A stretch of 64,000 bases of DNA, taken from positions 110,695 to 174,694 of the IMG/VR virus record IMGVR_UViG_3300017917_003388, one strand, 5' to 3'. The DNA comes from a virus. The position numbers and the translations under genes were made by a program. A model generated the notes under the pieces. That model worked only from the letters and a program-made list of their open reading frames with translations. It was not told the DNA's origin and made no database searches. Shown here piece after piece: positions 14,065 through 52,838 of this stretch (the first letter of the stretch is position 1; each line of letters begins with the position of its first letter).

Positions 14065-14095
14065 AGATATTTAGTTTTTATTTGTTTATTATTTG

Positions 14096-14515: not shown

Positions 14516-14540
14516 TTAATTTATAATAATAAATATTGTA

Positions 14541-15158: not shown

Positions 15159-15161
15159 AAT

Positions 15162-16851: not shown

Positions 16852-16857
16852 AGAATT

Positions 16858-17934: not shown

Positions 17935-17967
17935 TTATATTATAATTAAAATACATACATAAATATT

Positions 17968-40203: not shown

Positions 40204-40653
40204 TCAAGTTTTATTTTTACCTAAAAATTCTTCAACTTTAATTTTAATATTTTGTAATAATGAACATTTTTCATAATGTTCTAATTTTTCAAAATAATCA
40301 ATTGATATGTTTATATTATGTAATAGATAAAATGTGGATTTTTTTGAAATACAATCTATATGGAATACATTATTGGTATCTATATTTTTAATATAATTCC
40401 ATGCTTTATCAAACATATATTTATTTTTTAACAATAAAATATTGTCTTTATCATTATTTAATTTTGTATTTTTTATAGCATTTTTAATTAATTCTTCAAA
40501 ATATTTCTCATTAGATATTATTTTATTAAATCCATTTATCCAATATAATGGATGATTTGAAAAATCAATGGGTAATGTTTCATCATTATCATCATTATTT
40601 GATATGATGTTATCATCTATGTGAGTAAAAATTTTAAATATATCTAAATTCAT
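40204..40653 (-). CDS. Hypothetical with UVR-like C-terminal helix
   Basis: YFEKLEHYEKCSLL. Confidence 0.5.
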   Translation of the reverse strand: MNLDIFKIFTHIDDNIISNNDDNDETLPIDFSNHPLYWINGFNKIISNEKYFEELIKNAIKNTKLNNDKDNILLLKNKYMFDKAWNYIKNIDTNNVFHIDCISKKSTFYLLHNINISIDYFEKLEHYEKCSLLQNIKIKVEEFLGKNKT

Positions 40654-40834
40654 ATTTTAAAAATATTAAAAAAATATTAAATAAATTTTTTAAAAACTTA
40701 AATTATATATTTTAATAAAGTCTATGTTAAAAGATTTAAAGTTAATATAAATTTTTATTTTAATTAAAATATTAAAAATAAAAAAAGCCTCATATTTTAT
40801 TATAAATATAAGGCTTCTAATTGTATTATACTAA

Positions 40835-41353
40835 TTAAAATATTAAATATTGTTTCCAATCTTCTTTATTTTTATATACTCTACTTATGAAATAGAAAGG
40901 ATTAGGTCTAAATGGTTTAATATTTAATTTCATACCTGCTTGTTCTGGTGTTTTGTCACCTTTCTTTAAATTACATGGAAAACAACATGTTACTAGATTT
41001 TCCCATGTATTTAATCCTCCTTTAGATCTAGGATCTATGTGGTCTAAAGTTAGATTTTTAGTTGATCCACAATAAGCACATTTATTATCGTCTCGTTTAA
41101 ATATATTTTCTCTTGAAAGTACAATTTTTCTATGAGGAACATAAACATATTTAGTTAAACGAATAACTGAAGGTTTATGGTATTTGTTGATACTAGTATC
41201 TAAAGTTATTCCTGTATCTTCTATTATTTCTGCTTTACCTTTCCAAACTAATTTAAAAGCTTGTTTGAAAGTAGTAACATTTATTGGTAGAAAATCAGCA
41301 TTTAAAACTAATATCATTGAGTTTTTTTTATTATAACTCTTTAAATTTTTCAT
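40835..41353 (-). CDS. HNH endonuclease (McrA-like family)
   Basis: LVLNADF.P, PSVIRL, RDDNKCAYCG, TLDHI.PRSKGG..TWENLVTCC..CN..KG. Confidence 0.9.
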   Translation of the reverse strand: MKNLKSYNKKNSMILVLNADFLPINVTTFKQAFKLVWKGKAEIIEDTGITLDTSINKYHKPSVIRLTKYVYVPHRKIVLSRENIFKRDDNKCAYCGSTKNLTLDHIDPRSKGGLNTWENLVTCCFPCNLKKGDKTPEQAGMKLNIKPFRPNPFYFISRVYKNKEDWKQYLIF

Positions 41354-41396
41354 AATTTCATATTTATATTAAAATATATTTATTATAATTATTTAG

Positions 41397-41469
41397 TACC
41401 CAATGTAGGATTCGAACCTACAAAAACTTGTTCCTAAGACAAGTGTGTCTTCCTTTCCACCAATTGGGT
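41397..41469 (-). tRNA. tRNA-Leu(UAG), short variable loop
   Basis: ACCCAAT/ATTGGGT acceptor, CTTGT-CTTAGGA-ACAAG, GGTTCGAATCC. Confidence 0.85.
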
Positions 41470-41474
41470 ATTAG

Positions 41475-41546
41475 TACACCGTATAGGACTCGAACCTATA
41501 TTAAAAGTTCCGTAGACTTCCGTTCTTCCAATTGAACTAACAGTGC
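41475..41546 (-). tRNA. tRNA-Arg(ACG)
   Basis: Cloverleaf, loop CTACGGA. Confidence 0.85.
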
Positions 41547-41551
41547 ATGTG

Positions 41552-41627
41552 GGTATTATGTGGGATTCGAACCCACGACCTCTAGTGCCACAAACTAGCG
41601 CTCTTATCCATCTGAGCTAATAACACC
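41552..41627 (-). tRNA. tRNA-His(GUG)
   Basis: G-1/C73, loop TTGTGGC. Confidence 0.92.
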
Positions 41628-41632
41628 ATGTG

Positions 41633-41705
41633 TTCTCTTTTGAGGATTCGAACCTACAATTACCTGAGCCAAAATCAAGTGTCCTGCCAATTAGACGAAA
41701 AGAGA
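41633..41705 (-). tRNA. tRNA-Gln(UUG)
   Basis: Loop TTTTGGC; imperfect T stem. Confidence 0.8.
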
Positions 41706-41711
41706 GTATAG

Positions 41712-41785
41712 AGGTAAAGGTAAGATTCGAACTTACGTAATTTTGTTTTGCAAACAAATGCCTAAACCACTCAAGCCACTTTACC
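41712..41785 (-). tRNA. tRNA-Cys(GCA)
   Basis: Loop TTGCAAA, U73. Confidence 0.88.
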
Positions 41786-41789
41786 ATTG

Positions 41790-41863
41790 AGCTTCATATC
41801 GGGATCGAACCAATTCTATTTCTCATTACAAGTGAGATGCACCACCATTTATGCGTATGAAGC
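41790..41863 (-). tRNA. tRNA-Thr(UGU)
   Basis: Loop CTTGTAA. Confidence 0.85.
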
Positions 41864-41868
41864 TTATG

Positions 41869-41944
41869 CGGCTTATACGGGATTTGAACCCGTGATCTTC
41901 TGCGTGACAGGCAGACGGGGACGACCTGACTCCCCTAATAAGCC
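41869..41944 (-). tRNA. tRNA-Asp(GUC)
   Basis: Loop CTGTCAC, G73. Confidence 0.9.
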
Positions 41945-41949
41945 AATTG

Positions 41950-42023
41950 AGCAAGTAGACGGGATCGAACCGACTCTATTCCTGATTGGAAGTCAGGTGC
42001 ACCACCATTTATGCGTTACTTGC
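41950..42023 (-). tRNA. tRNA-Gly(UCC)
   Basis: Loop CTTCCAA, U73. Confidence 0.88.
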
Positions 42024-42031
42024 TTTTTTAG

Positions 42032-42104
42032 TACCCCCTGTAGGAATCGAACCTACGACATCTTGTATGTAAAACAAGCACTCTTCCAGCTGAGCTAAAG
42101 GGGC
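42032..42104 (-). tRNA. tRNA-Val(UAC)
   Basis: Loop TTTACAT. Confidence 0.9.
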
Positions 42105-42109
42105 ATAAG

Positions 42110-42185
42110 TAAGGTAAGTGGGATTTGAACCCACATGCTCTTCATCCCAAATGAAGCGAGATAAGCCTGATTCCTCTATTACCTT
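42110..42185 (-). tRNA. tRNA-Pro(UGG)
   Basis: Loop TTTGGGA. Confidence 0.85.
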
Positions 42186-42191
42186 ATAATG

Positions 42192-42264
42192 TGGATCTCC
42201 TCGGAATCGAACCGAGATTTCTTGTTCTTCAGACAAGCACATTGACCAACTCTGTCAAAGATCC
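42192..42264 (-). tRNA. tRNA-Phe(GAA)
   Basis: Loop CTGAAGA. Confidence 0.85.
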
Positions 42265-42270
42265 ATATAG

Positions 42271-42357
42271 TGGAAGTGGAGGGATTCGAACCCACAAGTT
42301 AACCCCAAAGGGACTAGTTTTACAGACTAGCGAACACACCAATTGTTCAACACTTCC
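42271..42357 (-). tRNA. tRNA-Tyr(GUA)
   Basis: Loop CTGTAAA, long variable arm. Confidence 0.88.
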
Positions 42358-42364
42358 ATTTTTG

Positions 42365-42435
42365 CGGTTCCCAAAGGAATCGAACCTTTGTATAAAGATT
42401 AACAGTCTTTTGTTCTACCATTGAACTAGGGAACC
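42365..42435 (-). tRNA. tRNA-Asn(GUU)
   Basis: Loop CTGTTAA, G73. Confidence 0.9.
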
Positions 42436-42879
42436 ATTATTTCTTATCTTTTCATGTTCTTCTCTATGACAATTAGAACATAATAAATCGCATTTATCTA
42501 CTTCTATTTTCATTTTCTCTAAAGAATATGAATTCGAAGATATTGAAAAATCTTTTTGTTTTGGATCTTGATGATGAAATTCTAAAGCAGATAAACACTT
42601 ATTATACCCACATTTAACACATTGGTTTCCTTTATATTCAAGTAATTTAATTTTAGTTCTTCTTTTCCAATTAATTACATTATTCACATTTTGTTTTTTT
42701 CTTTCTTGTTTAGATAATGGTATTCGTTTTTCTTTTTTTTCTTTTTTTACTAACTTTAAATTATGTTTATTTATATAATACCCAACTGTTCCTTTTTGAA
42801 TAGATAATAAATTACATATATCTTTAATTTTAATATTTTGTTTACGTAAATTTATTATTTGTTCTTCTATATTTTTCAT
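42415..42879 (-). CDS. HNH homing endonuclease inserted in the tRNA array
   Basis: N-terminal HTH; KGNQCVKCGY..C.SALEFHH.DP...KCDLLCSNCHREEH; 3' end overlaps tRNA-Asn. Confidence 0.88.
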   Translation of the reverse strand: MKNIEEQIINLRKQNIKIKDICNLLSIQKGTVGYYINKHNLKLVKKEKKEKRIPLSKQERKKQNVNNVINWKRRTKIKLLEYKGNQCVKCGYNKCLSALEFHHQDPKQKDFSISSNSYSLEKMKIEVDKCDLLCSNCHREEHEKIRNNGSLVQW

Positions 42880-42948
42880 TTTATTATAAATATATTAGAA
42901 CAATTTTAAATTCGATTACTCCTTTTATTTCATCATTTCAAAGATCTG

Positions 42949-43023
42949 TGATCCTGGAGGGACTCGAACCCACGTTTCCTACATTAAAAGTGTAGTGCCT
43001 ACAACCAACTCGGCCACAGAATC
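42949..43023 (-). tRNA. tRNA-Lys(UUU)
   Basis: Loop CTTTTAA. Confidence 0.88.
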
Positions 43024-43029
43024 ATTATG

Positions 43030-43103
43030 TAGTCAAAGTAGGACTTGAACCTACGACCTCTTGCTTATCAGACAAGCGCTCTAACCAACTGAGCTATATG
43101 ACT
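43030..43103 (-). tRNA. tRNA-Ile(GAU)
   Basis: Loop CTGATAA, canonical D/T arms. Confidence 0.92.
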
Positions 43104-43151
43104 ATGTATGGGTTTTATTTTATGTAGAAACCCAAACTCGTAAACTACATT

Positions 43152-43223
43152 TGGTGGAGCATGTGGGAATCGAACCCAAATAAATTGTTTGCAAAACAAT
43201 CCGCCTGCCTTCGGCATCACCCC
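43152..43223 (-). tRNA. tRNA-Ala(UGC), atypical D arm, encoded CCA
   Basis: G3.U70, loop TTTGCAA, ends CTCCACCA; D arm GCC-GAA-GGC. Confidence 0.7.
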
Positions 43224-43230
43224 CATATTG

Positions 43231-43315
43231 CGGAGAGTAAAGGATTCGAACCTTTGGACCAAATTAACGATCACAGTTTAGCAAACTGCTGCAATAACCA
43301 CTCTGCCAACTCTCC
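43231..43315 (-). tRNA. tRNA-Ser(GCU)
   Basis: Loop TTGCTAA, long variable arm, G73. Confidence 0.9.
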
Positions 43316-43321
43316 ATTTTG

Positions 43322-43408
43322 CGGAAGCGAAGGGAATCGAACCCCCAAGTCAGGTTTCCCCGACCAACTGTTTTCAAGACAGCCCCCTCGTCCATTCGGA
43401 CCACTTCC
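43322..43408 (-). tRNA. tRNA-Ser(UGA)
   Basis: Loop CTTGAAA, long variable arm, G73. Confidence 0.9.
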
Positions 43409-43415
43409 ATTTTAG

Positions 43416-43485
43416 CACGCCGTGTAGGAATTGAACCCACCCGCAAGAGTTTTGGAGGCTCTGCCGACCCATGTCTGAACGACGC
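43416..43485 (-). tRNA. tRNA-Trp(CCA), short D arm
   Basis: Loop CTCCAAA, G73. Confidence 0.75.
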
Positions 43486-43516
43486 GTATTAAAAAATTTA
43501 ACAATAAATTAAGAAC

Positions 43517-43548
43517 AAAAAAACCCGAACTTTTTTAGATTCGGGTTT
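43517..43548 (-). terminator. Intrinsic terminator (candidate attenuator) immediately upstream of the tRNA array
   Basis: AAACCCGAAT-CTAAAAAA-GTTCGGGTTT then TTTT. Confidence 0.8.
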
Positions 43549-43578
43549 AGTATAAAAATATAAATAAATTATATAATT

Positions 43579-43692
43579 TTAATAAACCGAATCAGGTGGA
43601 TGAATAAACCACGTCCCATTATCGACTTTAATCGACGGTTGATAAGTCGCAAGACTATCAAAATTAAAGGTATATAGTTTATAGTTTTTCAT
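43579..43692 (-). CDS. 37-aa candidate leader peptide MKNYKLYTFNFDSLATYQPSIKVDNGTWFIHPPDSVY
   Basis: Own translation; ATG ~18 nt after promoter motif; last codons complementary to the terminator 5' arm. Confidence 0.6.
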   Translation of the reverse strand: MKNYKLYTFNFDSLATYQPSIKVDNGTWFIHPPDSVY

Positions 43693-43709
43693 CTGTTTTT
43701 CTTTTATTA

Positions 43710-43740
43710 TAAATATATGAAAAGGATTTTGAAATCCAAA
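43710..43740 (-). promoter_or_regulatory. Bacteroidetes-type promoter driving leader + tRNA array
   Basis: TTTG-N19-TATATTTA, close to the Bacteroidetes TTTG-N19-21-TAnnTTTG consensus. Confidence 0.7.
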
Positions 43741-43759
43741 TTCTTTTTCTTTTTTTTAG

Positions 43760-43833
43760 TTGCGGGGGAAGGATTCGAACCTTCGACCTTTAGGTTATGA
43801 GCCTAACGAGCTGACCAACTGCTCTACCCCACA
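43760..43833 (-). tRNA. tRNA-Met(CAU), initiator-like
   Basis: TGTGGGG/CCCCGCA-A, loop CTCATAA. Confidence 0.88.
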
Positions 43834-43923
43834 TTGTTATTACTTATATTATTATATATTGATACATATTGTAAAAATTTTAAAAATAACCGACCTTGCT
43901 CGGTTAACACAATTGGTTTCTTG

Positions 43924-45531
43924 TTAAATCTCTATACTTTCAATTTCTTGAATAAGAGCTTTATAACCTTTACAATTAGCTTCAATTAGGTTAAAGATTT
44001 TATCTGACCAACCCGCAATCTGTAATACATTAAGTGATTTATCAAAAACTGATTTTCCACTAGTTTGTTTTATATCAACACAAATTGTATTACAATGTGG
44101 GTTTACTTTTTTAAATTCTTTAAACAATGTTTGGAACGAACCTAATCCAGCATCAGATGAATGATCCCATCCTCCACTACCTCCAGAACCTATAACCATG
44201 TCTGAAAATATTACTAGATTATCAACTCTGGTTTTTTCTTTAATACATCTATCTAAAAATATATAAAGTCCATTTTCAGTTCCTCCACCACATTTCACTC
44301 CTTCATTAAATGAATTTTTGTTAAATTCAAGTAAACCTTTTTTTCTATCAATTGGTATTTGGATTAATTTATCACCAAATAAACCCATATATACATTTCT
44401 TTGAGACCATGTTAACATGGAACCAAATAAATTACCAATCATAGCTGTTGTGGTTTTAGAAAAAGCAGATACTTTAGAACTTCCACCACCATCTCCTCTA
44501 ACAGAACCAGAATGGTCAATTAGTACAGCTGTTGTACCTTCAAGAGCTGGGATATTTTCAACAGAAAATTCTAATGCTTGTTCAAGAGCTGCTAATACTT
44601 TATCAACTAATGTATTTGTAGATGTAGATTCAAAAGTAATAGTTTTAGATCTAGATGAACCAGTATGTTTTAGTTTTTCGATTTCTTCATATGCTGTAGC
44701 AAATCTAAATGGTAATAATCTAGAATTGAGAACTTTATCTTTATTAGTCAAATGTGAAATAGCTTTATCAACTTGATCAGGAGCGGTTTCAATTATATTT
44801 CTAAGATTTCTCAATAGATTCATAATTGGTGCATCACCATCCAAAACTTCAGTAATAGCTGCTGCTTTTACTTCGGTTACATCTAAATTTTGTGATTTAG
44901 CAACTTGACCTGCTTTGGATAATTGCTTTTCCATAATTTTGGTAGAATATAATCCTTCCAATGATTCACCAGCAATTAATCTTTTAAAAGCTTCAAAGTT
45001 TTGTTTGGTAGGTTTAGGATGTACTAAGTTTACCAAATCAACAAGTGAAATCTCTTTTTTAGACATTTTATATTTGTCAATAAGATAAGGATCCATAGAT
45101 TCTAGTTTTTTCTTAAATCCACGTCTCATAGCATTAGCTATTTTTTTATTACCTTTTGAAAAATAATAAGCTAAAATCTCTGACATATCATCAGGACGAA
45201 CTGATACTTTCTTGTAAAAACGAGAAGCATATTCTTTTCCTGACAAACGTGGTGCTAATTCACCGGCTAAAAGATGAGTTACAGATCTCATATTAGCATC
45301 ATTTCTCAAATATATAGCTAACTTAGCTACAAAGTCTTCACTTACCTTATTTGCAGCATTTTTAATACGATTAACCACTTCGTTTTCTGATTCATAATAT
45401 GAACCTTGTAAGAATGTAGTTAAACATGTTGCTACAAGTTCTTCTTTTTCACTTAATTGATAAGCTTTTTCCCCCATTTCATTTACTGTTGTTGGAACAG
45501 TAGGAGTTTTAGATTTATTGTACTTTGACAT
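43924..45531 (-). CDS. rsr: Ro60/TROVE-domain RNA-binding protein (TROVE + vWA)
   Basis: N.MG.KAY, AIYLR...MRS, DKYK...SLVDLVNLVHPKP, LLRNLRNI, SRLLPFRF.TAY, vWA MIDAS IDHSGS, FSD, IAGWSDKIF. Confidence 0.92.
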   Translation of the reverse strand: MSKYNKSKTPTVPTTVNEMGEKAYQLSEKEELVATCLTTFLQGSYYESENEVVNRIKNAANKVSEDFVAKLAIYLRNDANMRSVTHLLAGELAPRLSGKEYASRFYKKVSVRPDDMSEILAYYFSKGNKKIANAMRRGFKKKLESMDPYLIDKYKMSKKEISLVDLVNLVHPKPTKQNFEAFKRLIAGESLEGLYSTKIMEKQLSKAGQVAKSQNLDVTEVKAAAITEVLDGDAPIMNLLRNLRNIIETAPDQVDKAISHLTNKDKVLNSRLLPFRFATAYEEIEKLKHTGSSRSKTITFESTSTNTLVDKVLAALEQALEFSVENIPALEGTTAVLIDHSGSVRGDGGGSSKVSAFSKTTTAMIGNLFGSMLTWSQRNVYMGLFGDKLIQIPIDRKKGLLEFNKNSFNEGVKCGGGTENGLYIFLDRCIKEKTRVDNLVIFSDMVIGSGGSGGWDHSSDAGLGSFQTLFKEFKKVNPHCNTICVDIKQTSGKSVFDKSLNVLQIAGWSDKIFNLIEANCKGYKALIQEIESIEI

Positions 45532-45570
45532 ATAACTTGGTTTTTAAAATTAATTAAACAAATTTAGAAT

Positions 45571-45616
45571 AAAAAAGGGAGAAACATTAATTATTTATTT
45601 AACTAATATTTCTCCC
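45571..45616 (-). terminator. Intrinsic terminator between Y-like RNA array and ro60
   Basis: GGGAGAAATATTAGTT-loop-AATTAATGTTTCTCCC + TTTTTT, ~40 nt before ro60 ATG. Confidence 0.8.
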
Positions 45617-45629
45617 AATTTAAAATTAA

Positions 45630-45772
45630 TTGATAGAGAATATTATAAAAGAGGTTTGTGTTTGACTATTTGGAAGATAGTTGCTTTTACCATTTAGCTA
45701 ATTTTTCCAATGCGGAAAAATATTGGATTCGAACCAATAATACGAAGTAACTCTTTTAATTACTACTATCAA
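45630..45772 (-). ncRNA. Y-like RNA 1: scaffold + circularly permuted tRNA-Gly(UCC) mimic
   Basis: TTGATAG/CTATCAA and AAAAGAG/CTCTTTT stems, GTAGTAAT and GTTACTTCG motifs; T arm, closed acceptor, D arm, CTTCCAA loop. Confidence 0.8.
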
Positions 45773-45781
45773 ATATTTTTA

Positions 45782-45868
45782 AACAAGAGAAAAAATAGAA
45801 TTGAGTGTTTGTTTGATTAATTGTCCAAAAATTAGTATACGAAGTAACTCAACTCATTACTACTTGTT
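45782..45868 (-). ncRNA. Y-like RNA 2: scaffold + single 7-nt-loop hairpin
   Basis: AACAAG/CTTGTT, GAGTTGAG/CTCAATTC compensatory stem, same motifs. Confidence 0.75.
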
Positions 45869-45879
45869 AAAATCTTAAA

Positions 45880-46010
45880 AAAAATAAGAGAAAAGATAAA
45901 AGAGTATATTTGAATTATCGACAGGGATCGAACCTGCAACTCATTTCTGAAAAGGAAATTGTGCTACCAATTGCACTACGAAGTAACTCTTTTGATTACT
46001 ACTTATTTTT
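45880..46010 (-). ncRNA. Y-like RNA 3: scaffold + linear D-anticodon(UUU)-T tRNA mimic
   Basis: Same scaffold; TAGTGCAATTGGTAGCAC, ATTTC-CTTTTCA-GAAAT, GCAGG-TTCGATC-CCTGT. Confidence 0.8.
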
Positions 46011-46035
46011 ATTTTTATTAATTGAATATATAAAT

Positions 46036-46100
46036 AAAGAACGTTTTTTTCTTAATTTCTTGATATTGTAAATATAAGATTAAAGATTTTGAAATCCTAA
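46036..46100 (-). promoter_or_regulatory. Promoter + boxA-like cassette (identical copy at 60316..60380)
   Basis: TTAG-N20-TATATTTA then CGTTCTTT; 65-bp exact repeat. Confidence 0.75.
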
Positions 46101-46138
46101 TTTTAATATCTTTTTTTAAAAAAAAATTTATTAACTAG

Positions 46139-46213
46139 TACTCCCGACGGGGCTCGAACCCGCAATTTCTACCTTGAAAGGGTAGCGGCTTAAACCAATT
46201 TGCCCACAGGAGC
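46139..46213 (-). tRNA. tRNA-Glu(UUC)
   Basis: CTACC-CTTTCAA-GGTAG. Confidence 0.9.
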
Positions 46214-46216
46214 GTA

Positions 46217-46384
46217 AAATTTAAAGAGAAACAAATAAAAGAGTATTTTTCTAAAAACGCGTGTCTACCAATTCCACCACCCCATAATTTGTTATCAATT
46301 AAGTTATGGGGGAAGGATTCGAACCTCCAATGTACGTGCTCCTAATGCAAGCGAAGTAACTCTTTTGATTACTACTTTAAATTT
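46217..46384 (-). ncRNA. Y-like RNA 4: scaffold + permuted tRNA-Leu-derived mimic
   Basis: 10-bp closing stem; T arm GGAGG-TTCGAAT-CCTTC, closed CCCATAA/TTATGGG acceptor, D arm identical to tRNA-Leu at 52184. Confidence 0.8.
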
Positions 46385-46388
46385 AAAG

Positions 46389-46464
46389 TTGCGGGGGTGA
46401 GACTCGAACTCACGTTATTTGGCTTATGAGACCAAGCTGGCAACCACCTCCAGACTACCCCACA
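46389..46464 (-). tRNA. tRNA-Met(CAU)
   Basis: TGTGGGG/CCCCGCA-A, loop CTCATAA. Confidence 0.82.
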
Positions 46465-46496
46465 ATTTTTATTTTAATAAATATTGTAATATTTTT

Positions 46497-46558
46497 AAAG
46501 AACGTATTTTCTTTTTTTCTTTATTGTAAATATAGGATTAAAGATCTTGTAATCCTAA
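46497..46558 (-). promoter_or_regulatory. Promoter + boxA-like element
   Basis: TTAGGATTACAAGATCTTTAATCCTATATTTA ... CGTTCTTT. Confidence 0.7.
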
Positions 46559-46893
46559 TTTAAATTTAACTTTCTTTTATAATATACATATATATTTTGT
46601 CGATATGAAGAATTTTATTTTTTAGTATTGGAGCGAGATACATATGTTATATCAAAGTTGGTATTTTGAAAAAACATATTAATAATTTGAGATATATAAT
46701 TATATATTGGTCGGGTTGAGAGGGGTGTATAAGATCTGAAAATATATCCAAGTCCCTGTCCCTGCCCCCAGCCCGCCGTATGGACCCCAGCATGCGTGGT
46801 AGCATATACCCATACCCATACGCACGTATGCATATATGCACCAGAAGAGATATGTCTTGTTTTTTACTTCATTCCTTAAAATTTACATTCGAC

Positions 46894-46922
46894 AAAAATG
46901 GGGCGCCATTACTGGCGCCCCA
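46894..46922 (-). terminator. Strong intrinsic terminator closing the early-gene block
   Basis: TGGGGCGCCA-GTAA-TGGCGCCCCA + TTTTT. Confidence 0.85.
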
Positions 46923-46947
46923 CCGAATTACCCCCAATTGATATTAC

Positions 46948-47121
46948 TCACCACAACCCCATGTTCCGCATTTTCCCAGGCATGATCATAATAATAATGG
47001 CTAAACATTCGCCACAACCAGCTACCCAGATAAAAAGATCAATATTAACAGTAACACAGGCATAAATGATGGCACTAACAAATGCAATCAAAATGATGAG
47101 GAGTAAATCAAATGTTTTCAT
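46948..47121 (-). CDS. Small membrane protein (57 aa, not in track)
   Basis: Own translation MKTFDLLLIILIAFVSAIIYAC...; own promoter copy upstream. Confidence 0.5.
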   Translation of the reverse strand: MKTFDLLLIILIAFVSAIIYACVTVNIDLFIWVAGCGECLAIIIMIMPGKMRNMGLW

Positions 47122-47174
47122 GGGTTGTTTTTTTATTTCGTTGATGTGAATATAAAACGTACCAACTTGTAATC

Positions 47175-47411
47175 CTAGCGTCTACGTTTTTTATTACATG
47201 TACGCCCGATGTTTACTACCTTCCATCCATGATGGCTCGAATAGTGTTTCTTTTGACGGCGTTTGCTTTTACGCTTGGTTTTATAATGTGGTGGGCCTGG
47301 ACACGGACGAACAGTATATTCAGTATTAACTGAATTAAAATCCATAGTGGTGTTTGCTTCAACATTACCACCCATGATTGCGATCATAATGATCAAAATG
47401 TATTTTTTCAT
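47175..47411 (-). CDS. Signal peptide + basic tail hypothetical
   Basis: ORF behind promoter copy. Confidence 0.55.
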   Translation of the reverse strand: MKKYILIIMIAIMGGNVEANTTMDFNSVNTEYTVRPCPGPPHYKTKRKSKRRQKKHYSSHHGWKVVNIGRTCNKKRRR

Positions 47412-47467
47412 AACCGTTTTATTTGTTGATGTGAATATAAAACATACAAACGTGTAGTCCTAATGTG

Positions 47468-47719
47468 TTAATCTTCTACATCTGATAGATAAGTCTGAAT
47501 AAATTCACTACAATCCATCCCAAATTCATTATCCATTATTTGAATGAGTTCATCCCAATTTTTACAATCACGAATGCGTTTAACCACATCCATATGATTG
47601 TTATATTGTTCATTAACTGTCATGTGTTCAGCAAAATATAGATAATTCGCTATCTCGGTTTCACTATTGGCAATTCTGGTTTTAACCAATTCCAATATCA
47701 ATCGATTTGTCTTGCTCAT
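47468..47719 (-). CDS. Hypothetical early protein
   Basis: Start MSKTN downstream of promoter copy. Confidence 0.55.
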   Translation of the reverse strand: MSKTNRLILELVKTRIANSETEIANYLYFAEHMTVNEQYNNHMDVVKRIRDCKNWDELIQIMDNEFGMDCSEFIQTYLSDVED

Positions 47720-47948
47720 CGTTTTAAATTTGTTGAGATGAATATATGTGTTATTACTTGGTATGCCCAGTAAATCCACTAAACATCAATTTAACAATTA
47801 TTGAACAAACTAGTAGTTTGATTCCGAGTGATACTGCAAAAACCATTTGTCTTGTTTTTATTCGTTTTTATATAACTAAATATATAGACAAAAATAGGGT
47901 AGGCCTAATGACCTACCCTAATTTAATCTCAACCGGGATTTAATTTTA

Positions 47949-48488
47949 TTATTCAGCTGAAGGCGCTTGTTCTTGTGTTTGAGTTGCAGCTGCTACCGGT
48001 TGTTCTGCTGGTGTTGGTGCTGGTGTTTCCACTTTTACTGCTTTGGGGCGACCACGTTTCACCAATCCTTCTGCACGTTTTGCTTCAAGCTCGGCAAGGC
48101 GTTTTTGACGTGCTGATTCGGTGTTTACAGGGCGACCACGTTTCAATTCACCGTTTGCACGCTTCGCTTCCATTTCAGCCAAACGCTTCTGACGTTCTGA
48201 TTCGGTGTTTACAGGGCGACCACGTTTCAATTCACCGTTTGCACGTTTTGCTTCAAGCTCGGCAAGGTGTTTCTGACGTTCTGATTCAGGGTTCACAGGG
48301 CGTCCCAGTTGTTTTACTTCTTTCACTTCAGCTTGCGGAGCTGATTGTTGAGTTGCTGTTGCTACTTCTTCAGTAGTGGCAGCGGGGGTTGTTTCTGTAG
48401 TTGTTTCTGCAGTTGCAGTTTCAACAATTGGGTTTGCTGATTCAACAGTGGTTTCAGCGATGCGGGCAACTTTACCTGACTTTTTCAT
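47949..48488 (-). CDS. AT-hook repeat DNA-binding protein
   Basis: Three 27-aa repeats GRPVN.ES.RQK.LAE.EAKRA.G..KR containing KRGRP AT-hook cores. Confidence 0.7.
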   Translation of the reverse strand: MKKSGKVARIAETTVESANPIVETATAETTTETTPAATTEEVATATQQSAPQAEVKEVKQLGRPVNPESERQKHLAELEAKRANGELKRGRPVNTESERQKRLAEMEAKRANGELKRGRPVNTESARQKRLAELEAKRAEGLVKRGRPKAVKVETPAPTPAEQPVAAATQTQEQAPSAE

Positions 48489-48587
48489 GGTTTTGTTTTT
48501 GTTAAAGGGTTTGTATTGATTGTTGTTTTTCGTTTTTCTTGTTGATGTAAATATAAAACATGCAACCTTGTAATCCTAATTCTTGGG

Positions 48588-48725
48588 TTATTTAATTTCT
48601 TTAAACCCATCCAACAATGCTACATTATGGTAACCATAACCAGCATTGTACATTGCTTCTAAGATATTTGGACCCTCAACAATTTCAGATGCTTTGTCGA
48701 TCCAATACAAGATGAATTTTTTCAT
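48588..48725 (-). CDS. Small hypothetical (45 aa, not in track)
   Basis: Own translation MKKFILYWIDKASEIVEGPNILEAMYNAGYG...; promoter upstream. Confidence 0.55.
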   Translation of the reverse strand: MKKFILYWIDKASEIVEGPNILEAMYNAGYGYHNVALLDGFKEIK

Positions 48726-48772
48726 GTTTTATTTGTTTTTGTTTTTATTTGTTGATGTGAATATAAAATGGT

Positions 48773-49069
48773 TTAATGTGTAGTCCTAGCCAATGAATTT
48801 AATAAATCTTCCCAACACATTTTATTAACAGCAGTGTTGAAGTCTTTATCATAATTTTTCCAATATTTTTTAATATCATCACGATGAGTACTAACCCAAT
48901 TGTTGATAAACATAATCAACCTAACATTAGACCAAGTTTCAATAGGTGATACATATTATTCTTGAGTAGGGTTTTCACTCATTAGATTTACCTCCATTAA
49001 ATCTATCCATTTACTATCTCGTTCGTATTTGAGATATTCCAACACAGCCATTTTATCAACTTTCAACAT
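48773..49069 (-). pseudogene. Early gene with in-frame TAA at codon 38
   Basis: MLKVDKMAVLEYLKY...PTQE*YVSPIETWS...; frame open on both sides, promoter upstream. Confidence 0.5.
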
Positions 49070-49136
49070 GATGTTATGTTTTTTGTTGATGTAAATATAA
49101 GATTATTTGGTATGTAATCCCAATGGATTATGTTAT

Positions 49137-49367
49137 TTAATCATTATCAAACTCACTCCAATCACCTCCGCTTTCAACAAATCTCCATCCCATATGAATA
49201 AAATCCATTTCACTCATATCATCAATTATACTCTCAAAGAAACTATAAAAATCATTACGTCTAATATTCTTGTTTTTTTCAAATCGAGCATTGAATTTAT
49301 CCAGAATATCAGCTTCACCTTCATAGGTCATTACTAATTCCAAAACAAGATTATAATTAGTTTTCAT
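49137..49367 (-). CDS. Hypothetical early protein
   Basis: ORF behind promoter copy. Confidence 0.55.
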   Translation of the reverse strand: MKTNYNLVLELVMTYEGEADILDKFNARFEKNKNIRRNDFYSFFESIIDDMSEMDFIHMGWRFVESGGDWSEFDND

Positions 49368-49482
49368 GATTGTTTTTTGTTGATGTAAATATAAAATTTA
49401 ACATCTTGAAATCCCACAGAATAAAAAAGGACATCAATTGATGTCCTCTTCCTTATGTATAACCACTATTTAAAACACTATC

Positions 49483-49644
49483 TTAACTAACAGTGATGTT
49501 TTCTAAACATTTTCGTGCTTCGTTTTTTGATACTTTAAACACATCACACAATATTGTTTCATCAATGTCACCGAATGTAGCAACATATTCTACCACAGCA
49601 TTATTCAGGCCTATTTTTTCAGCCAAATTGATCCAATATTTCAT
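49483..49644 (-). CDS. Small hypothetical (53 aa, not in track)
   Basis: Own translation MKYWINLAEKIGLNNAVVEYV...; promoter upstream, terminator at ~49422-49447. Confidence 0.55.
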   Translation of the reverse strand: MKYWINLAEKIGLNNAVVEYVATFGDIDETILCDVFKVSKNEARKCLENITVS

Positions 49645-49697
49645 ATTTGTTTTTTTGGTTGAAGTAAATATAAAATGGTAAAATTTGTAATCCTAAT

Positions 49698-49931
49698 TTA
49701 CCATTTATTTGTTCCTTTGGCTCTGTTCTTTCTGTTTTCTTCCCATTCCTTTATCCAAAATGGGTAATAAACCACAGGAGGAAGTAACCAAATACAAAAC
49801 ATCACTCCATATGTTGTTCTATTAAAATCATTCTCTACCCAATTATCTGGGTTAGGGTCTTGATTAATAATAGCTAAAACAACACATATCACTAAATTAA
49901 TCAAACAAGTCCACTTGAATATCTTTCTCAT
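49698..49931 (-). CDS. Two-TM membrane protein
   Basis: Hydrophobic segments. Confidence 0.5.
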   Translation of the reverse strand: MRKIFKWTCLINLVICVVLAIINQDPNPDNWVENDFNRTTYGVMFCIWLLPPVVYYPFWIKEWEENRKNRAKGTNKW

Positions 49932-50172
49932 TCTTTCTACTCCCCACAGACATACCCTCATATTTCAAAAGTGAATTACAAATGTAGTTCTGAATTTTGA
50001 TTATTGTTTTACAGTTGTTTACGTTTGTGATTATGAGTTGTTTATCAGTTTCCTTAATATCCTTACTATTGACAAAATCAATAATGAATTGTTTTGCTTC
50101 GTCAATATTTTTTATCACAAACACTTTCTCAGCGATTTGTTCAAAAATGGATTTGATCGGATACTTACTCAT
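49897..50172 (-). CDS. Hypothetical phage protein
   Basis: YICNSLLKYEGM C-terminal motif. Confidence 0.55.
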   Translation of the reverse strand: MSKYPIKSIFEQIAEKVFVIKNIDEAKQFIIDFVNSKDIKETDKQLIITNVNNCKTIIKIQNYICNSLLKYEGMSVGSRKNEKDIQVDLFD

Positions 50173-50363
50173 AACTTTTTATTTAAATTAAATATAAGAT
50201 AATAGGTTTTGAAATCCTATTTCTTAAAATACCTACGACACCTAAAGCCCAGTCTCTTAACGAGCTGAGCTTTAAGTTTTTATATTTCGTTTTATCAACG
50301 ACTTCCCCTTACCCTTAATAAATCAACAACAATCTAATAACAAAAACACAGGGGGAATAATAG

Positions 50364-50948
50364 TTAATTATGTTTAATATGATCCATGATTTCATGAATC
50401 GCTCCGTATTCAGGATTTACAAATCCTGTAATAGTTTCTGTGTAAGAATTACAGATAAATATTACAGATGAAACTAAAAATACAATTCCTAAAATAAATA
50501 AAACCACTGAAGCCACACCTAAAGATGTATCTTCCATATCAATATTACGTCTTGATTGTCCGGATCCATCTGGTTTATAACCACATTGGGCTAAGTGAAC
50601 GAAGTATAATTTATTTGCTTTAGTAAACAAAACAATAACGATAATGAGTAAAAACGCCCATAAACCTACGTTTACAATGGATTTCACCACTTGTTGTTTA
50701 ACCAAAATCATATATACATGTTCCACTCCAACCTTCAGTGCTGAACCAATTGCTCCTAAAGCTGACTTAAAATCAGAATAGATCTGTTTGGTTACAGATG
50801 AAGTATCAACTGAATTCAAAGCAGCAGATGTACTGTCTACTACGTTTGAAACTGTTGTTTTGGCTTTATCGATGATAGATTCATCATCAGATGCATTCAC
50901 AAATGTTGAGCTTACAAATAAGCACATCAACAGAAATAACTTTTTCAT
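50364..50948 (-). CDS. Membrane protein
   Basis: Signal peptide, EHVY.ILVKQ, two TMs, NPEYGAI. Confidence 0.6.
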   Translation of the reverse strand: MKKLFLLMCLFVSSTFVNASDDESIIDKAKTTVSNVVDSTSAALNSVDTSSVTKQIYSDFKSALGAIGSALKVGVEHVYMILVKQQVVKSIVNVGLWAFLLIIVIVLFTKANKLYFVHLAQCGYKPDGSGQSRRNIDMEDTSLGVASVVLFILGIVFLVSSVIFICNSYTETITGFVNPEYGAIHEIMDHIKHN

Positions 50949-50979
50949 TTGGATTTGGATTTGGATTTATGTTTGTTTA

Positions 50980-51264
50980 TTAATCAAGAAGATCACCATC
51001 AGTTAAATCACCCAAGATACCTCCAATCATACTTCCTCCAACCAACCCTCCTAGGATTGCTGAGTCAGTAACAGCACCAACAACAGCTGAAACACCAAGA
51101 CCTACAATGTCAATTCCATCTTCCTCAATATCATCGCGAAAGCGACTTGATGAATGATGTGACCCACGTGCCACTTCGTAATTACGACGAGCACTGTAAC
51201 TCAAATCAGAATAAGTAGAAGATGAAATCAATTCACCAGTGTGGATGTTGCGATATACTATCAT
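50980..51264 (-). CDS. Glycine-zipper protein
   Basis: GxxxG repeats at C-terminus; start MIVYRN after tRNA. Confidence 0.55.
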   Translation of the reverse strand: MIVYRNIHTGELISSSTYSDLSYSARRNYEVARGSHHSSSRFRDDIEEDGIDIVGLGVSAVVGAVTDSAILGGLVGGSMIGGILGDLTDGDLLD

Positions 51265-51281
51265 TTTGTTTTTTATTTTTG

Positions 51282-51356
51282 TAGTCAGGGTGAGGATCGA
51301 ACTCACACATCTCCACCTTATAAGAGTGGCGCCGTCACCAATTTAGCTACCTGACC
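51282..51356 (-). tRNA. tRNA-Ile(UAU)
   Basis: CCACT-CTTATAA-GGTGG, A73. Confidence 0.85.
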
Positions 51357-51365
51357 ATATTTTTG

Positions 51366-51439
51366 TGATCCCGACAGGATTCGAACCTGTGACCCACAGC
51401 TTAGAAGGCTGTTGCTCTATCCAGCTGAGCTACGGGACC
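51366..51439 (-). tRNA. tRNA-Arg(UCU)
   Basis: Canonical cloverleaf, loop CTTCTAA. Confidence 0.93.
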
Positions 51440-51600
51440 TTATTTTTTTTCTTTATTGTAAATATAAGATTAAAGATTTTGAAATCCCAATTCTTTATTC
51501 AAATCTAATGTTACAGTAAGATAACCAGTCAAGATAATATTTGTTTCTACTATTTAATACATGTGTAGTAAAATAGCATGTCAAATAATTATTTAACTAG

Positions 51601-51869
51601 TTTTTTCATATCGTTAACTCACATCGTCTTGCTATACCATCGGTCTCACATCTATTTGCTCATCCAGTTGTGTCGGCTGGCGGCGTGATGATTTTGCCAA
51701 TCAAAAAACCCAGTTGTGTCGGCTGGGGGCATTAATGCTTTTGTTACCAGTAATGTGTAAAGAACTTCACTACTCATGATGATTTCTATACTTGGTGTTA
51801 CATCTATCCAGAATCCCAAAGAAACCCCATTTTGGTGTTCAGTTATACATATGTGGAAGATATGAAAAA
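51601..51869 (-). ncRNA. Candidate ~270-nt structured RNA with duplicated hairpin
   Basis: 11-bp terminal inverted repeat; 17-nt direct repeat; boxA-like element just upstream. Confidence 0.5.
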
Positions 51870-52100
51870 TTCAAAGAACGAGAAACTACTTTTTTCAGCT
51901 AATTCAATTAAAACAAACGTTTTAACTGCTCTAACTTAAAGTAAATATAAGAACATGATTTTTGTATGCTAAGTTATTTAACATACATTTTATGTTTTTT
52001 TCTCGATTTATTTTTAAACCACTCAAGCCAACTTACCAATGTGTTGTAATTTGATAATACTGAATTTTTACTCATGACGTGAATTTTATTGTTTTGTTAG

Positions 52101-52174
52101 TGCTTCGTCTTGGACTCGAACCAAGGACCCTCTGATTATGAGTCAGGCGCTCTAACCAACTGAGCTAAAGAAGC
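52101..52174 (-). tRNA. tRNA-CAU (Ile2-like or elongator Met)
   Basis: TAGCTCAGTTGGTTAGAGC, CTGA-CTCATAA-TCAG. Confidence 0.85.
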
Positions 52175-52183
52175 ATCATTTTG

Positions 52184-52267
52184 TACCCGGGGCGGGACTC
52201 GAACCCGCACGCCCAAATGGGCAAGGGATTTTAAGTCCCTCGTGTCTACCAATTCCACCACCCAGGC
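52184..52267 (-). tRNA. tRNA-Leu(UAA)
   Basis: Canonical class II cloverleaf, loop CTTAAAA. Confidence 0.93.
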
Positions 52268-52272
52268 TTGGG

Positions 52273-52776: not shown

Positions 52777-52838
52777 GGGGTTTTGTTTTTCTTGTTGATG
52801 TAAATATAAGATTAAAGATCTTGAAATCCTAACAATCT

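What the first reader, a model, noticed from the sequence alone, without database searches (positions are those of the whole stretch)
43517..43740. Leader-peptide attenuator that could switch on the 19-tRNA array when translation stalls
Seen: promoter (43710-43740), then a 37-codon ORF absent from the track (43579-43692, MKNYKLYTFNFDSLATYQPSIKVDNGTWFIHPPDSVY), then an intrinsic terminator (43517-43548), then the tRNA array. The ORF's last codons GAUUCGGUUUA (43593-43583) are complementary, with one bulge, to the terminator 5' arm UAAACCCGAAUC, giving mutually exclusive 2:3 and 3:4 pairings. The peptide uses 17 amino acids, including 16 of the 18 specified by the array (no Cys or Arg), and lacks Glu, whose tRNA lies outside the array. 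It is rich in G/C-ending codons unexpected in this AT-rich DNA (GCG, CCG, UCG x2, ACG, ACC, GUC, GGG) and has a PP motif. Established: trp-type attenuation works this way for one amino acid. Inference: a ribosome reaching the stop masks the antiterminator, while a stall at almost any codon (tRNA cleavage or starvation) frees it, making this a pan-tRNA deficiency sensor.
Basis: partly seen in the sequence, partly recalled or inferred. Interest (0 to 1): 0.88.

Follow-up and report, generated by a model that had tools for sequence, protein, structure and literature searches.

The report
Leader-peptide attenuator gating phage tRNA array
A 37-codon mini-gene and a switchable transcription stop signal sit directly in front of this phage's 19 tRNA genes, so the phage probably makes these tRNAs only when ribosomes decode slowly, a trp-operon-type control that I could not find described for tRNA genes.

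Summary
On the minus strand lie a promoter, a 37-codon ORF (43692-43579), an intrinsic terminator (43549-43517) and then, 31 nt later with no room for a promoter, the tRNA array. The last ORF codons pair with the terminator's 5' arm.

The promoter belongs to a family of about 20 copies in this 174.7-kb phage. Two related phages (L017, L019) carry the same leader. In them the ORF is kept at 39 codons, but the 9-nt antiterminator block is read in a different frame. It is therefore conserved as RNA, with the stop codon 2-3 nt after it in all three.

Their peptide uses exactly the 18 amino acids of the array plus Met, and no Glu. Other phages show the same layout with different sequences:
- The complement to the terminator's 5' arm is enriched upstream of terminators that precede tRNAs.
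- An ORF covers it in 10 of 10 leaders.
- Each peptide contains every amino acid of its own downstream tRNA cluster (permutation p=5.5e-4).

I rate a ribosome-mediated attenuator at about 0.75. There are no expression data. This scan has noted the same design before in other phages; I found no published account.

The parts
43759..43833 (-). tRNA-Met(CAT) immediately upstream of the leader promoter; outside the gated unit
   Evidence: ARAGORN; Rfam tRNA 70 bits; same position in L017
43706..43745 (-). Promoter of the leader: one copy of a family of about 20 in the genome (palindromic core 43737-43724, -35-like 43733-43728, TATAAT 43711-43706)
   Evidence: 11 BLAST copies, about 20 by motif search, all on the minus strand. 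Most are followed 15-30 nt later by an ATG; one runs directly into tRNA-Arg
43579..43692 (-). Leader ORF, 37 codons plus stop. A-rich, Shine-Dalgarno-free 5' leader like the real genes behind the same promoter family
   Evidence: Kept as a 39-codon ORF in L017 and L019. An ORF covering segment 2 has p=0.022 against shuffles
43639..43661 (-). Hairpin A inside the ORF (9 bp with one bulge, tetraloop)
   Evidence: Same position in L017/L019 with two compensatory pair changes (alignment; pairs read by eye)
43622..43635 (-). Hairpin B inside the ORF (4-5 bp). Stems invariant; the loop differs in all three phages
43583..43593 (-). Segment 2: 5' strand of the antiterminator, formed by the last codons of the ORF; the stop codon begins 3 nt after the conserved 9-nt block
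   Evidence: The 9-nt block is invariant in L017/L019 within otherwise unalignable flanks and is read there in another frame
43550..43582 (-). AT-rich spacer (the antiterminator loop); contains the stop codon at 43581-43579
   Evidence: 37 nt from the 9-nt block to the arm here, 28 nt in L017/L019
43517..43549 (-). Intrinsic terminator: 5' arm (segment 3) 43549-43538, loop 43537-43531, 3' arm (segment 4) 43530-21, U-run 43523-43517
   Evidence: Arms conserved and loop changed in L017/L019
43486..43516 (-). 31-nt linker between the U-run and the first tRNA; no promoter-like site; begins with a conserved boxA-like octamer
   Evidence: One search lists no promoter-like site here; conserved in L017/L019
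43416..43485 (-). tRNA-Trp(CCA), first gene of the array (missed by ARAGORN)
   Evidence: Weak Rfam hit. Acceptor-stem covariation with L019; near-identical in L017
42948..43409 (-). Proximal tRNAs Ser(TGA), Ser(GCT), Ala, Ile(GAT), Lys: certainly behind the attenuator
   Evidence: All of their amino acids, plus Trp, occur in the leader peptide
42415..42879 (-). HNH-like ORF inserted in the array (absent in L019), with a promoter-like site at 42910-42883
41396..42435 (-). Distal 13 tRNAs (Asn to Leu-TAG). Gated by the leader unless the insertion's promoter drives them
   Evidence: Same order, contiguous with the proximal tRNAs, in L019

Best explanation
This is a ribosome-mediated (leader-peptide) transcription attenuator that gates the phage's tRNA array.

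Proposed mechanism:
1. RNA polymerase starts at an early-type phage promoter and transcribes a 37-codon ORF.
2. The last codons of the ORF (segment 2) can pair with the 5' arm of the terminator (segment 3).
3. If the leading ribosome has reached the last eight or so codons, or the stop codon, when segment 3 emerges, segment 2 is buried in the ribosome. The terminator (3:4) then forms and transcription ends 31 nt before tRNA-Trp.
4. If the ribosome lags or stalls anywhere in codons 1-28, because some tRNA is scarce, uncharged or cleaved, 2:3 forms first. The terminator cannot form and the tRNA genes are transcribed.
5. The leader is written in the amino acids, and for Leu, Ile and Arg in the codon boxes, that the array's own tRNAs read. 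The circuit is therefore a negative feedback on decoding capacity.

Shown: the anatomy, the alternative pairings, their conservation and covariation, the ORF over segment 2, and the match between peptide and tRNA cluster.

Inferred: translation of the ORF, the kinetics, and the direction of control.
For: (1) Anatomy and energetics.
- Before segment 4 is made, 2:3 has pair probabilities of about 0.96-1.0 for five of its seven core pairs (0.67 and 0.34 for the last two).
- The full transcript prefers the terminator: -40.3 against -38.9 kcal/mol with 2:3 enforced.
- Masking a ribosome footprint abolishes 2:3 only for P-site codons 30-39.

(2) No promoter-like site in the 31 nt between the U-run and tRNA-Trp.

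(3) Relatives L017 and L019.
- The leader is about 70% identical, while the flanking tRNAs are nearly identical.
- The start codon is kept and the ORF has 39 codons.
- The 9-nt segment-2 block is invariant but read in another frame.
- The stop lies 2-3 nt after it in all three; the terminator arms are kept and the loop is changed.

(4) Their peptide holds 18 of 18 array amino acids and no Glu: p=3e-4 under a proteome null, 0.005 under composition-matched shuffles.

(5) Codon boxes. Leu, Ile and Arg codons are those of the in-array isoacceptors (Leu-TAG, Ile-GAT, Arg-ACG), not of the phage's out-of-array ones. The count is 4/4 here and 7/7 in L019 (L017 has one TTA). Background usage is 22%, 48% and 31%.

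(6) Family.
- Terminators within 130 nt upstream of a tRNA have a median z of -2.5 for an upstream complement to the 5' arm, against -0.13 for 145 other terminators (Mann-Whitney p=0.001).
- The signal is specific to the 5' arm (Wilcoxon p=0.001).
- An ATG ORF covers the complement in 10 of 10 leaders (Fisher p=2e-7).
- Every leader peptide contains every amino acid of its own downstream cluster (Fisher p=1.3e-4).
- Peptide-cluster pairing against permuted pairing: p=5.5e-4.
Against:
- In this window alone the peptide's amino-acid diversity is ordinary, and Cys and Arg of the array are missing from it.
- The ORF's synonymous codon usage is very atypical (lowest 0.85%). The central 13 codons are nucleotide-identical between lineages, which shows RNA-level constraint and would also fit a non-coding RNA.
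- In the minimum-energy fold the start codon sits in a long helix.
- The 1:2 pairing seen in L017/L019 is absent here, so without any translation this leader would read through.
- Only two lineages share this exact leader, and several of the other leaders may be distant homologues, so the combined p-values overstate independence.
- Two of the 11 leaders were picked because of a low z-score (see full report).
Confidence: 0.75

Rival explanations
1. An ordinary small early gene with its own terminator. The tRNA array is expressed by constitutive leakage through the terminator or from unrecognised promoters, and the complementarity with the terminator arm has no function.
For: - Promoter, small ORF and terminator cassettes are common in this early region.
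- Small ORFs lie between tRNAs in relatives without any terminator (L016 6179-6349, L023).
- The 2:3 complementarity in this window alone is only p about 0.01-0.02.
Against: - The peptide has no homologue among 1.84 billion representative proteins, only noise from repeat proteins, and matches no Pfam or PHROG family.
- Its C-terminus changes frame while the nucleotides stay fixed.
- The complement is enriched specifically at terminators that precede tRNAs, and specifically for the 5' arm.
- The peptides match their own downstream tRNA clusters.
Confidence: 0.1
2. An RNA-only element. Either it is a roughly 190-nt structured small RNA with its own promoter and terminator, next to the Ro60/Y-RNA region, or it is a riboswitch- or T-box-like leader whose conserved core binds a factor or a tRNA. 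In either case the ORF is incidental.
For: - Nucleotide-level conservation of the core, with rare codons unchanged.
- Conserved hairpins with compensatory changes and variable loops.
- The leader folds better than shuffles, z=-3.3.
- The start codon is paired in the minimum-energy fold.
- A TROVE/Ro60 gene lies 230 nt upstream.
Against: - No Rfam family (T-box, riboswitches, YrlA) matches 43500-43750, even at E<=1.
- An ATG ORF covers segment 2 in 10 of 10 leaders from different phages (p=2e-7).
- The amino-acid content of these ORFs tracks the downstream tRNA set, which an untranslated RNA would not explain.
Confidence: 0.1
3. Chance: an AT-rich intergenic stretch that happens to hold an open frame and a partial repeat of the terminator arm.
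For: 7-9% of composition-matched shuffles of the ORF body stay open, and stop codons are frequent in the AT-rich spacer in every frame.
Against: Conservation in L017/L019, and recurrence with different sequences in other phages.
Confidence: 0.03

Closest known systems
Leader-peptide transcription attenuators of amino-acid operons (E. coli/Salmonella trpL, hisL, leuL, thrL, pheL; multivalent ilvGMEDA and thr leaders) and of pheST (textbook knowledge)
   Same: - A promoter-proximal short ORF.
- An intrinsic terminator before the regulated genes.
- A mutually exclusive antiterminator whose 5' strand lies at the ORF end, so that ribosome position decides.
- Leader codons chosen to report on the regulated product.
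- A trp-like 1:2 pairing in L017/L019.
   Different: - The regulated genes are tRNAs, not enzymes, and the element is in a phage.
- The leader does not carry a run of one or a few codons. It samples 16-18 different amino acids, matched to the array's content.
- No 1:2 hairpin in this window.
- No Shine-Dalgarno sequence (Bacteroidota-style initiation, inferred).
Ribosome-stalling attenuators of antibiotic-resistance genes (ermK, cat, and the vmlR/msrD/lmo0919 type; my own knowledge of Term-seq studies, not checked here)
   Same: A general slowdown of a ribosome on a short upstream ORF frees an antiterminator and switches on downstream genes.
   Different: There the stall is induced by a drug on a specific peptide. 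Here the presumed signal is tRNA supply, and the output restores that supply.
T-box riboswitches
   Same: A terminator/antiterminator leader that reports on tRNA status.
   Different: A T-box binds uncharged tRNA directly and has no ORF. No T-box match here, and the ORF is a consistent feature.
Earlier notes of this scan on other phages (e1-3450868, e1-4040834, e1-5326844, e1-3412744 and others; AI notes)
   Same: Promoter, mini-ORF and terminator cassettes whose peptides mirror the downstream tRNA set.
   Different: - Other genomes: Caulobacter phiCbK-like phages, marine Bacteroidota phages and giant phages.
- Here a single cassette gates an almost complete 19-tRNA set.
- Here the antiterminator block is shown to be conserved across a change of reading frame.

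Membership tests
Leader-peptide (ribosome-mediated) transcription attenuator, trpL/hisL type | Short ORF with a start codon close behind a promoter | tested here: met
   ATG lies 14 nt after the TATAAT of a multi-copy phage promoter, with the same spacing as real genes behind that promoter. The ORF is kept in L017/L019.
Leader-peptide (ribosome-mediated) transcription attenuator, trpL/hisL type | Intrinsic terminator between the leader ORF and the regulated genes, with no promoter in between | tested here: met
   Terminator at 43549-43517; 31 nt to tRNA-Trp with no promoter-like site. In the other leaders the hairpin ends 9-37 nt before the tRNA.
Leader-peptide (ribosome-mediated) transcription attenuator, trpL/hisL type | Antiterminator mutually exclusive with the terminator, with its 5' strand inside or at the end of the ORF | tested here: met
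   for this window. The block is invariant across a frame change in the relatives. Different sequences keep the same pairing in L040, L043, L029, L051 and L032.
Leader-peptide (ribosome-mediated) transcription attenuator, trpL/hisL type | Leader codons matched to the regulated product | tested here: met
   Here: 16/18 array amino acids, 6/6 for the proximal block, no Glu, and in-array codon boxes for Leu and Ile. L019: 18/18. Family: full coverage in 9/9 leaders (p=1.3e-4) and pairing permutation p=5.5e-4. Taken alone, this window's peptide is not significant (p=0.08).
Leader-peptide (ribosome-mediated) transcription attenuator, trpL/hisL type | 1:2 (pause / anti-antiterminator) hairpin | tested here: inconclusive
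   In L017/L019 segment 2 pairs with codons 1-5. In this window segment 2 is mostly unpaired before segment 3 appears: six of nine bases have P(unpaired) 0.96-1.0.
Leader-peptide (ribosome-mediated) transcription attenuator, trpL/hisL type | The ORF is translated and read-through rises when the ribosome stalls | not testable with these tools
T-box riboswitch / other Rfam cis-regulatory leaders | Match to the family's covariance model | tested here: not met
   cmscan at E<=1 over 40500-53000 gives no hit in 43500-43750.
Y RNA / YrlA-type Ro60-bound RNA | Match to the YrlA model or a Ro-binding stem | tested here: not met
   The only weak YrlA hit is at 52123-52230; there is none in the leader. 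A Ro-binding stem was not examined by hand.

The most novel reading that the evidence does not exclude
Phage tRNA arrays are demand-regulated. Each array is gated by a multi-codon 'test' ORF written in the amino acids and codon boxes of the tRNAs behind it. The phage therefore measures decoding capacity in the infected cell (host codon mismatch, host tRNA decay, or cleavage by anticodon-nuclease defences) and switches on exactly the tRNA set that is short. Here one cassette reports on 18 amino acids at once.
Probability: 0.65. Interest if true: 0.88.

Novelty: new variant of a known kind. Interest (0 to 1): 0.8.

Why it matters
Why phages carry tRNA arrays, and when they express them, is an open question. 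Current ideas are codon-usage compensation, replacement of degraded host tRNAs, and escape from tRNA-cleaving defence systems.

A leader-peptide attenuator in front of the array would mean that the phage senses decoding speed directly and supplies tRNAs on demand.

That makes the question testable: deplete or cleave one tRNA and watch read-through at a defined terminator.

It would also extend the classical attenuation logic, known for amino-acid and synthetase genes, to tRNA genes and to hosts without Shine-Dalgarno-led initiation. And it would offer a compact natural sensor of translation capacity for synthetic biology.

Tried and rejected
- **Leader DNA against GenBank phages**: only tRNA hits.
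- **Promoter motif in IMG/VR**: none outside this genome.
- **Peptide searches.** The query was too short for two tools. The full HMMER search of 1.84 billion representatives gave only cumulative noise on Sushi-type and other repeat proteins. No Pfam or PHROG match.
- **Synteny through the TROVE/Ro60 gene.** L001-L003, L012-L016, L018 and L022-L026 lack this leader and arrange their tRNAs differently. L016 does carry a different leader of the same kind, before its tRNA-Glu. For one further Ro60 relative (P0010) no DNA could be fetched. Only L017 is syntenic.
- **Metagenome scans.** The tRNA-Trp anchor gave 0 hits. The ORF-core anchor gave 2 unrelated chance hits, L020 and L021.
- **Synteny through the HNH gene downstream of the array.** The closest copies (L027, L028) have no tRNAs, so the gene is mobile.
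- **nhmmer profile of the three leaders** against 34 new loci: one marginal hit, on the L040 terminator.
- **Whole-record searches of the relatives:** not held.
- **MAFFT** misaligned segment 2; I used an anchor-based alignment instead.
- **RNAalifold on three sequences** paired the start region with the U-run, which I disregard.
- **Rejected arguments.** Amino-acid diversity of this window's peptide as evidence on its own. The PP motif (not conserved). A separate promoter for the array in the 31-nt linker.
- **Other tRNA groups in the window** (Met/Glu near 46.1-46.5 kb, Ile/Arg at 51.3 kb, Met/Leu at 52.1 kb) have no such leader.

Full report
**Setting.** The window is the right-hand 64 kb of a 174,694-bp virus record with direct terminal repeats. 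The genome has 27% G+C, and nearly all long ORFs lie on the minus strand.

On that strand the order of features is as follows:
- a TROVE/Ro60-like gene (45531-43924)
- its terminator (43906-43887)
- tRNA-Met (43833-43759)
- a promoter
- a 37-codon ORF (43692-43579)
- an intrinsic terminator (43549-43517)
- a 31-nt linker
- tRNA genes running to 41396

ARAGORN finds 18 tRNAs. A nineteenth, tRNA-Trp(CCA) at 43485-43416, is missed by ARAGORN and only weakly seen by Rfam. It is real, because three acceptor-stem pairs change compensatorily between this phage and L019.

- *Promoter.* It is not just a consensus match. BLAST of the leader against its own genome finds 10 further copies of the 50-70 nt promoter block, and a motif search finds about 20. 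All are on the minus strand, clustered at genome positions 0.6-19 kb and 154-171 kb.
- *What the promoter copies drive.* Most are followed after an A-rich, Shine-Dalgarno-free stretch of 15-30 nt by the ATG of a gene, exactly as here. One copy runs straight into tRNA-Arg.
- *Terminator.* It is canonical: a 10-bp stem followed by seven U.
- *Antiterminator.* The last ORF codons (43593-43583) pair with the terminator's 5' arm as 7 bp, a bulged C, then 4 bp. The isolated 2:3 fold is -14.0 kcal/mol, against -12.4 for the terminator hairpin.
- *Order of folding.* In the nascent transcript that ends with segment 3, five of the seven 2:3 core pairs have probability 0.96-1.0 (the last two 0.67 and 0.34). 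In the complete leader the terminator wins: -40.3 against -38.9 kcal/mol with 2:3 enforced. This is the relation seen in kinetically controlled attenuators.
- *Against chance.* The complementarity beats 98-99% of shuffles, and no such signal exists for the 3' arm.

**Nothing can start the array after the terminator.** No promoter-like site lies in the 31-nt linker. The first tRNAs therefore depend on polymerases that pass this terminator.

**Relatives with the same leader.** Synteny through the Ro60 gene and a pattern search found two: L017 (a Logan contig, Ro60 83% identical) and L019 (an IMG/VR contig). Both show tRNA-Met, promoter, ORF, terminator, then tRNA-Trp. L019, the longer contig, continues with the same 18 tRNAs in the same order; L017 ends just after tRNA-Trp.
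- The tRNAs are nearly identical, whereas the leader is only about 70% identical. The leader comparison is therefore informative.
- The start codon is kept and the ORF has 39 codons.
- A central block of 13 codons is nucleotide-identical, including the rare G/C-ending codons. It forms two hairpins: one has two compensatory pair changes, and the other has invariant stems and a loop that differs in all three phages.
- Beyond this block the sequences cannot be aligned, except for a 9-nt stretch that is the core of segment 2.
- A 4-nt length difference upstream puts that stretch in a different reading frame in the relatives, so the C-terminal amino acids differ completely. Even so, the stop codon begins 2-3 nt after the stretch in all three.
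- Segment 2 is therefore conserved as RNA, at the very end of a conserved ORF. The attenuator model predicts this; a functional small protein would not.
- The terminator arms are kept and the loop is changed.

**Peptide content.**
- *In this window alone.* 17 amino-acid kinds in 37 residues is ordinary (18% of real windows; p=0.44). 16 of 18 array amino acids without Glu gives p=0.08 against composition-matched shuffles.
- *In the relatives.* This is the independent test, and it is much stronger. Their 39-residue peptide uses exactly the 18 amino acids of the array plus the initiator Met, and lacks only Glu, whose tRNA lies outside the array. This gives p=3e-4 with proteome frequencies and 0.005 with composition-matched shuffles.
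- *Codon boxes.* The phage carries one isoacceptor inside the array and another elsewhere for three families: Leu TAG against TAA, Ile GAT against TAT, and Arg ACG against TCT. The leaders use the in-array codon box in 4 of 4 codons here and 7 of 7 in L019; L017 has one TTA. Those boxes make up only 22%, 48% and 31% of usage in the phage's genes.

**The same architecture elsewhere.** I scanned 407 tRNAs in all fetched loci for an intrinsic terminator just upstream. In unrelated positions of other phages (L040 twice, L043, L016, L029, L051) a terminator ends 9-37 nt before a tRNA in five of these six cases; in L051 it lies 120 nt upstream. Each is preceded by a promoter-like site and a short ORF.
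- *Unbiased comparison.* I compared the 13 terminators within 130 nt upstream of a tRNA with 145 other terminators. The best upstream duplex with the 5' arm has median z -2.5 against -0.13. It reaches p<=0.02 in 46% against 5.5% of cases (Mann-Whitney p=0.001).
- *Some "others" belong to the same class.* Examples are L017, whose tRNA-Trp ARAGORN misses, and L032-L035.
- *Sequences differ but pairing is kept.* L043 and L029 have perfect or near-perfect 12-bp complements of quite different arms.
- *Arm specificity.* The signal is specific to the 5' arm: mean z -3.3 against -0.7 (Wilcoxon p=0.001).
- *ORF over the complement.* An ATG ORF of 22-47 codons covers the complement and ends before the terminator in all ten non-redundant leaders (Fisher p=2e-7 against shuffles).
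- *Selection caveat.* Two of the eleven leaders (L029 at 1601 and L032) were added because of their low z-score. They should be discounted. Searches do not depend on that choice.

**Peptides match their own tRNA clusters.** Before looking at the results I defined a cluster as the same-strand tRNAs that follow the terminator with gaps of at most 300 nt.
- Every leader peptide contains every amino acid of its cluster, in 9 of 9 leaders (Fisher p=1.3e-4; the same without this window).
- L043 has 18 of 31 residues from the five amino acids of its eight tRNAs (binomial p=2e-4).
- One L029 leader has a nine-residue run, eight of whose residues are amino acids of its six-tRNA cluster. The other L029 leader has an eight-residue run made only of its cluster's amino acids.
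- Permuting which cluster goes with which peptide gives a mean of 12.9 missing amino acids, against 2 observed (p=5.5e-4). Without this window and L019 the figures are 7.7 against 0 (p=0.0017).
- Amino-acid diversity as such is raised in some leaders but not in all (Fisher p=0.001 under the proteome null, 0.014 under the composition null).

**Mechanism.** The most likely reading is a ribosome-mediated attenuator.
- *This window.* A footprint-masking calculation places the sensing region at codons 1-28: 2:3 forms with probability of about 0.99 when the ribosome is there or absent. The shut-off region is P-site positions 30-39, where 2:3 is impossible.
- *L017/L019.* Segment 2 is first held by a pairing with codons 1-5. 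This trp-like 1:2 is released when a ribosome sits on the start region.
- *Difference between the two designs.* This phage's leader lacks that pairing. With no translation at all, it should read through, whereas the relatives' leader should terminate.
- *Logic.* The circuit is a negative feedback. Slow decoding of codons read by the array's tRNAs gives read-through and more of those tRNAs; fast decoding gives termination.
- *Shown:* the anatomy, the alternative pairings, conservation and covariation, ORF coverage, and the match between peptide and cluster.
- *Inferred:* translation of the ORF, the timing of ribosome against polymerase, and the physiological trigger.

**Weak points and complications.**
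- No expression data could be obtained.
- The ORF's codon usage is very atypical. Its conserved centre is constrained at the nucleotide level, so a purely RNA-based switch or a small RNA cannot be excluded. It would not, however, explain the ORF statistics or the peptide-cluster match.
- An HNH-like ORF (42879-42415) with a promoter-like site (42910-42883) splits the array here but not in L019. The distal 13 tRNAs may therefore have a second input. The two array amino acids missing from this peptide, Cys and Arg, belong to that distal part. The six proximal tRNAs are fully represented.
- Only two lineages share this exact leader. Some of the other leaders look distantly homologous: they share the first four codons and have similar terminators. 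The combined p-values therefore overstate independence.

**Comparison with what is known.**
- The closest known systems are the leader-peptide attenuators of amino-acid operons and of pheST, especially the multivalent ilv and thr leaders (textbook knowledge).
- All structural membership features are met. The 1:2 hairpin is met only in the relatives, and the functional feature is untestable here.
- It is not a T-box or any other Rfam leader.
- Four full-text searches found no account of leader-peptide attenuation of tRNA genes or phage tRNA arrays. This is absence of a hit in an open-access library, not proof of novelty.
- After finishing my own tests I looked up this scan's notes. The same design has been noted and followed up several times in other phages (Caulobacter phiCbK-like, marine Bacteroidota and giant phages). 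Those are AI notes and not independent evidence, but they agree with what I found.

**Verdict.** This is a new variant of a known kind of regulation. Confidence in the ribosome-mediated attenuator is about 0.75; interest is 0.8.

Noticed in passing
window 43706-43745 and about 10 further sites in the window (e.g. 46098, 46556, 49415, 50218, 51488, 52830, 53503, 56346, 60378); also genome positions 627-19086: One promoter of about 40 nt, with a palindromic core, recurs about 20 times, always on the minus strand and clustered at both genome ends. It looks like the early-gene promoter family. The relatives L013/L014 carry a variant of it.
   Followed up: partly
window 43416-43485: tRNA-Trp(CCA) missed by ARAGORN. 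It has a C31:A39 mismatch in the anticodon stem, and three acceptor pairs covary with L019.
   Followed up: partly
window 42415-42910: A 154-aa HNH-like ORF with its own promoter-like site is inserted between tRNA-Lys and tRNA-Asn. It is absent from the otherwise collinear array of L019. The HNH gene after the array (40835-41353) has close copies in phages without tRNAs (L027, L028), so it appears to be mobile.
   Followed up: partly
window 43509-43516; L016 about 1062-1073; L032 about 1245-1256: A short boxA-like motif (GTTCTT followed by A or T) lies directly after the attenuator terminator and before the first tRNA. It is conserved in L017/L019, and a similar motif follows the L016 terminator. 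It may load Nus factors on polymerases that have passed the attenuator.
   Followed up: no
window 45637-45707 and 45918-45981: Rfam tRNA hits (32.6 and 41.2 bits) that ARAGORN does not call, in the non-coding stretch just upstream of the TROVE/Ro60 gene. They are probably tRNA-like modules of Y-like RNAs.
   Followed up: no
L015 2786-2860; L002 579-652: Relatives carry a tRNA with a CTA anticodon (amber-suppressor-like) and a tRNA with a four-base anticodon, TTAA.
   Followed up: no
L040 4463-4645: A 40-codon leader ORF uses all 20 amino acids. It shares its first four codons with this window's leader and sits before a terminator 9 nt upstream of tRNA-Val, in a phage with 35 tRNAs in the locus.
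   Followed up: partly
window 45577-45616: A long AT-rich terminator-like hairpin lies between the Y-like RNA region and the start of the Ro60 gene, so that gene also sits behind a terminator.
   Followed up: no
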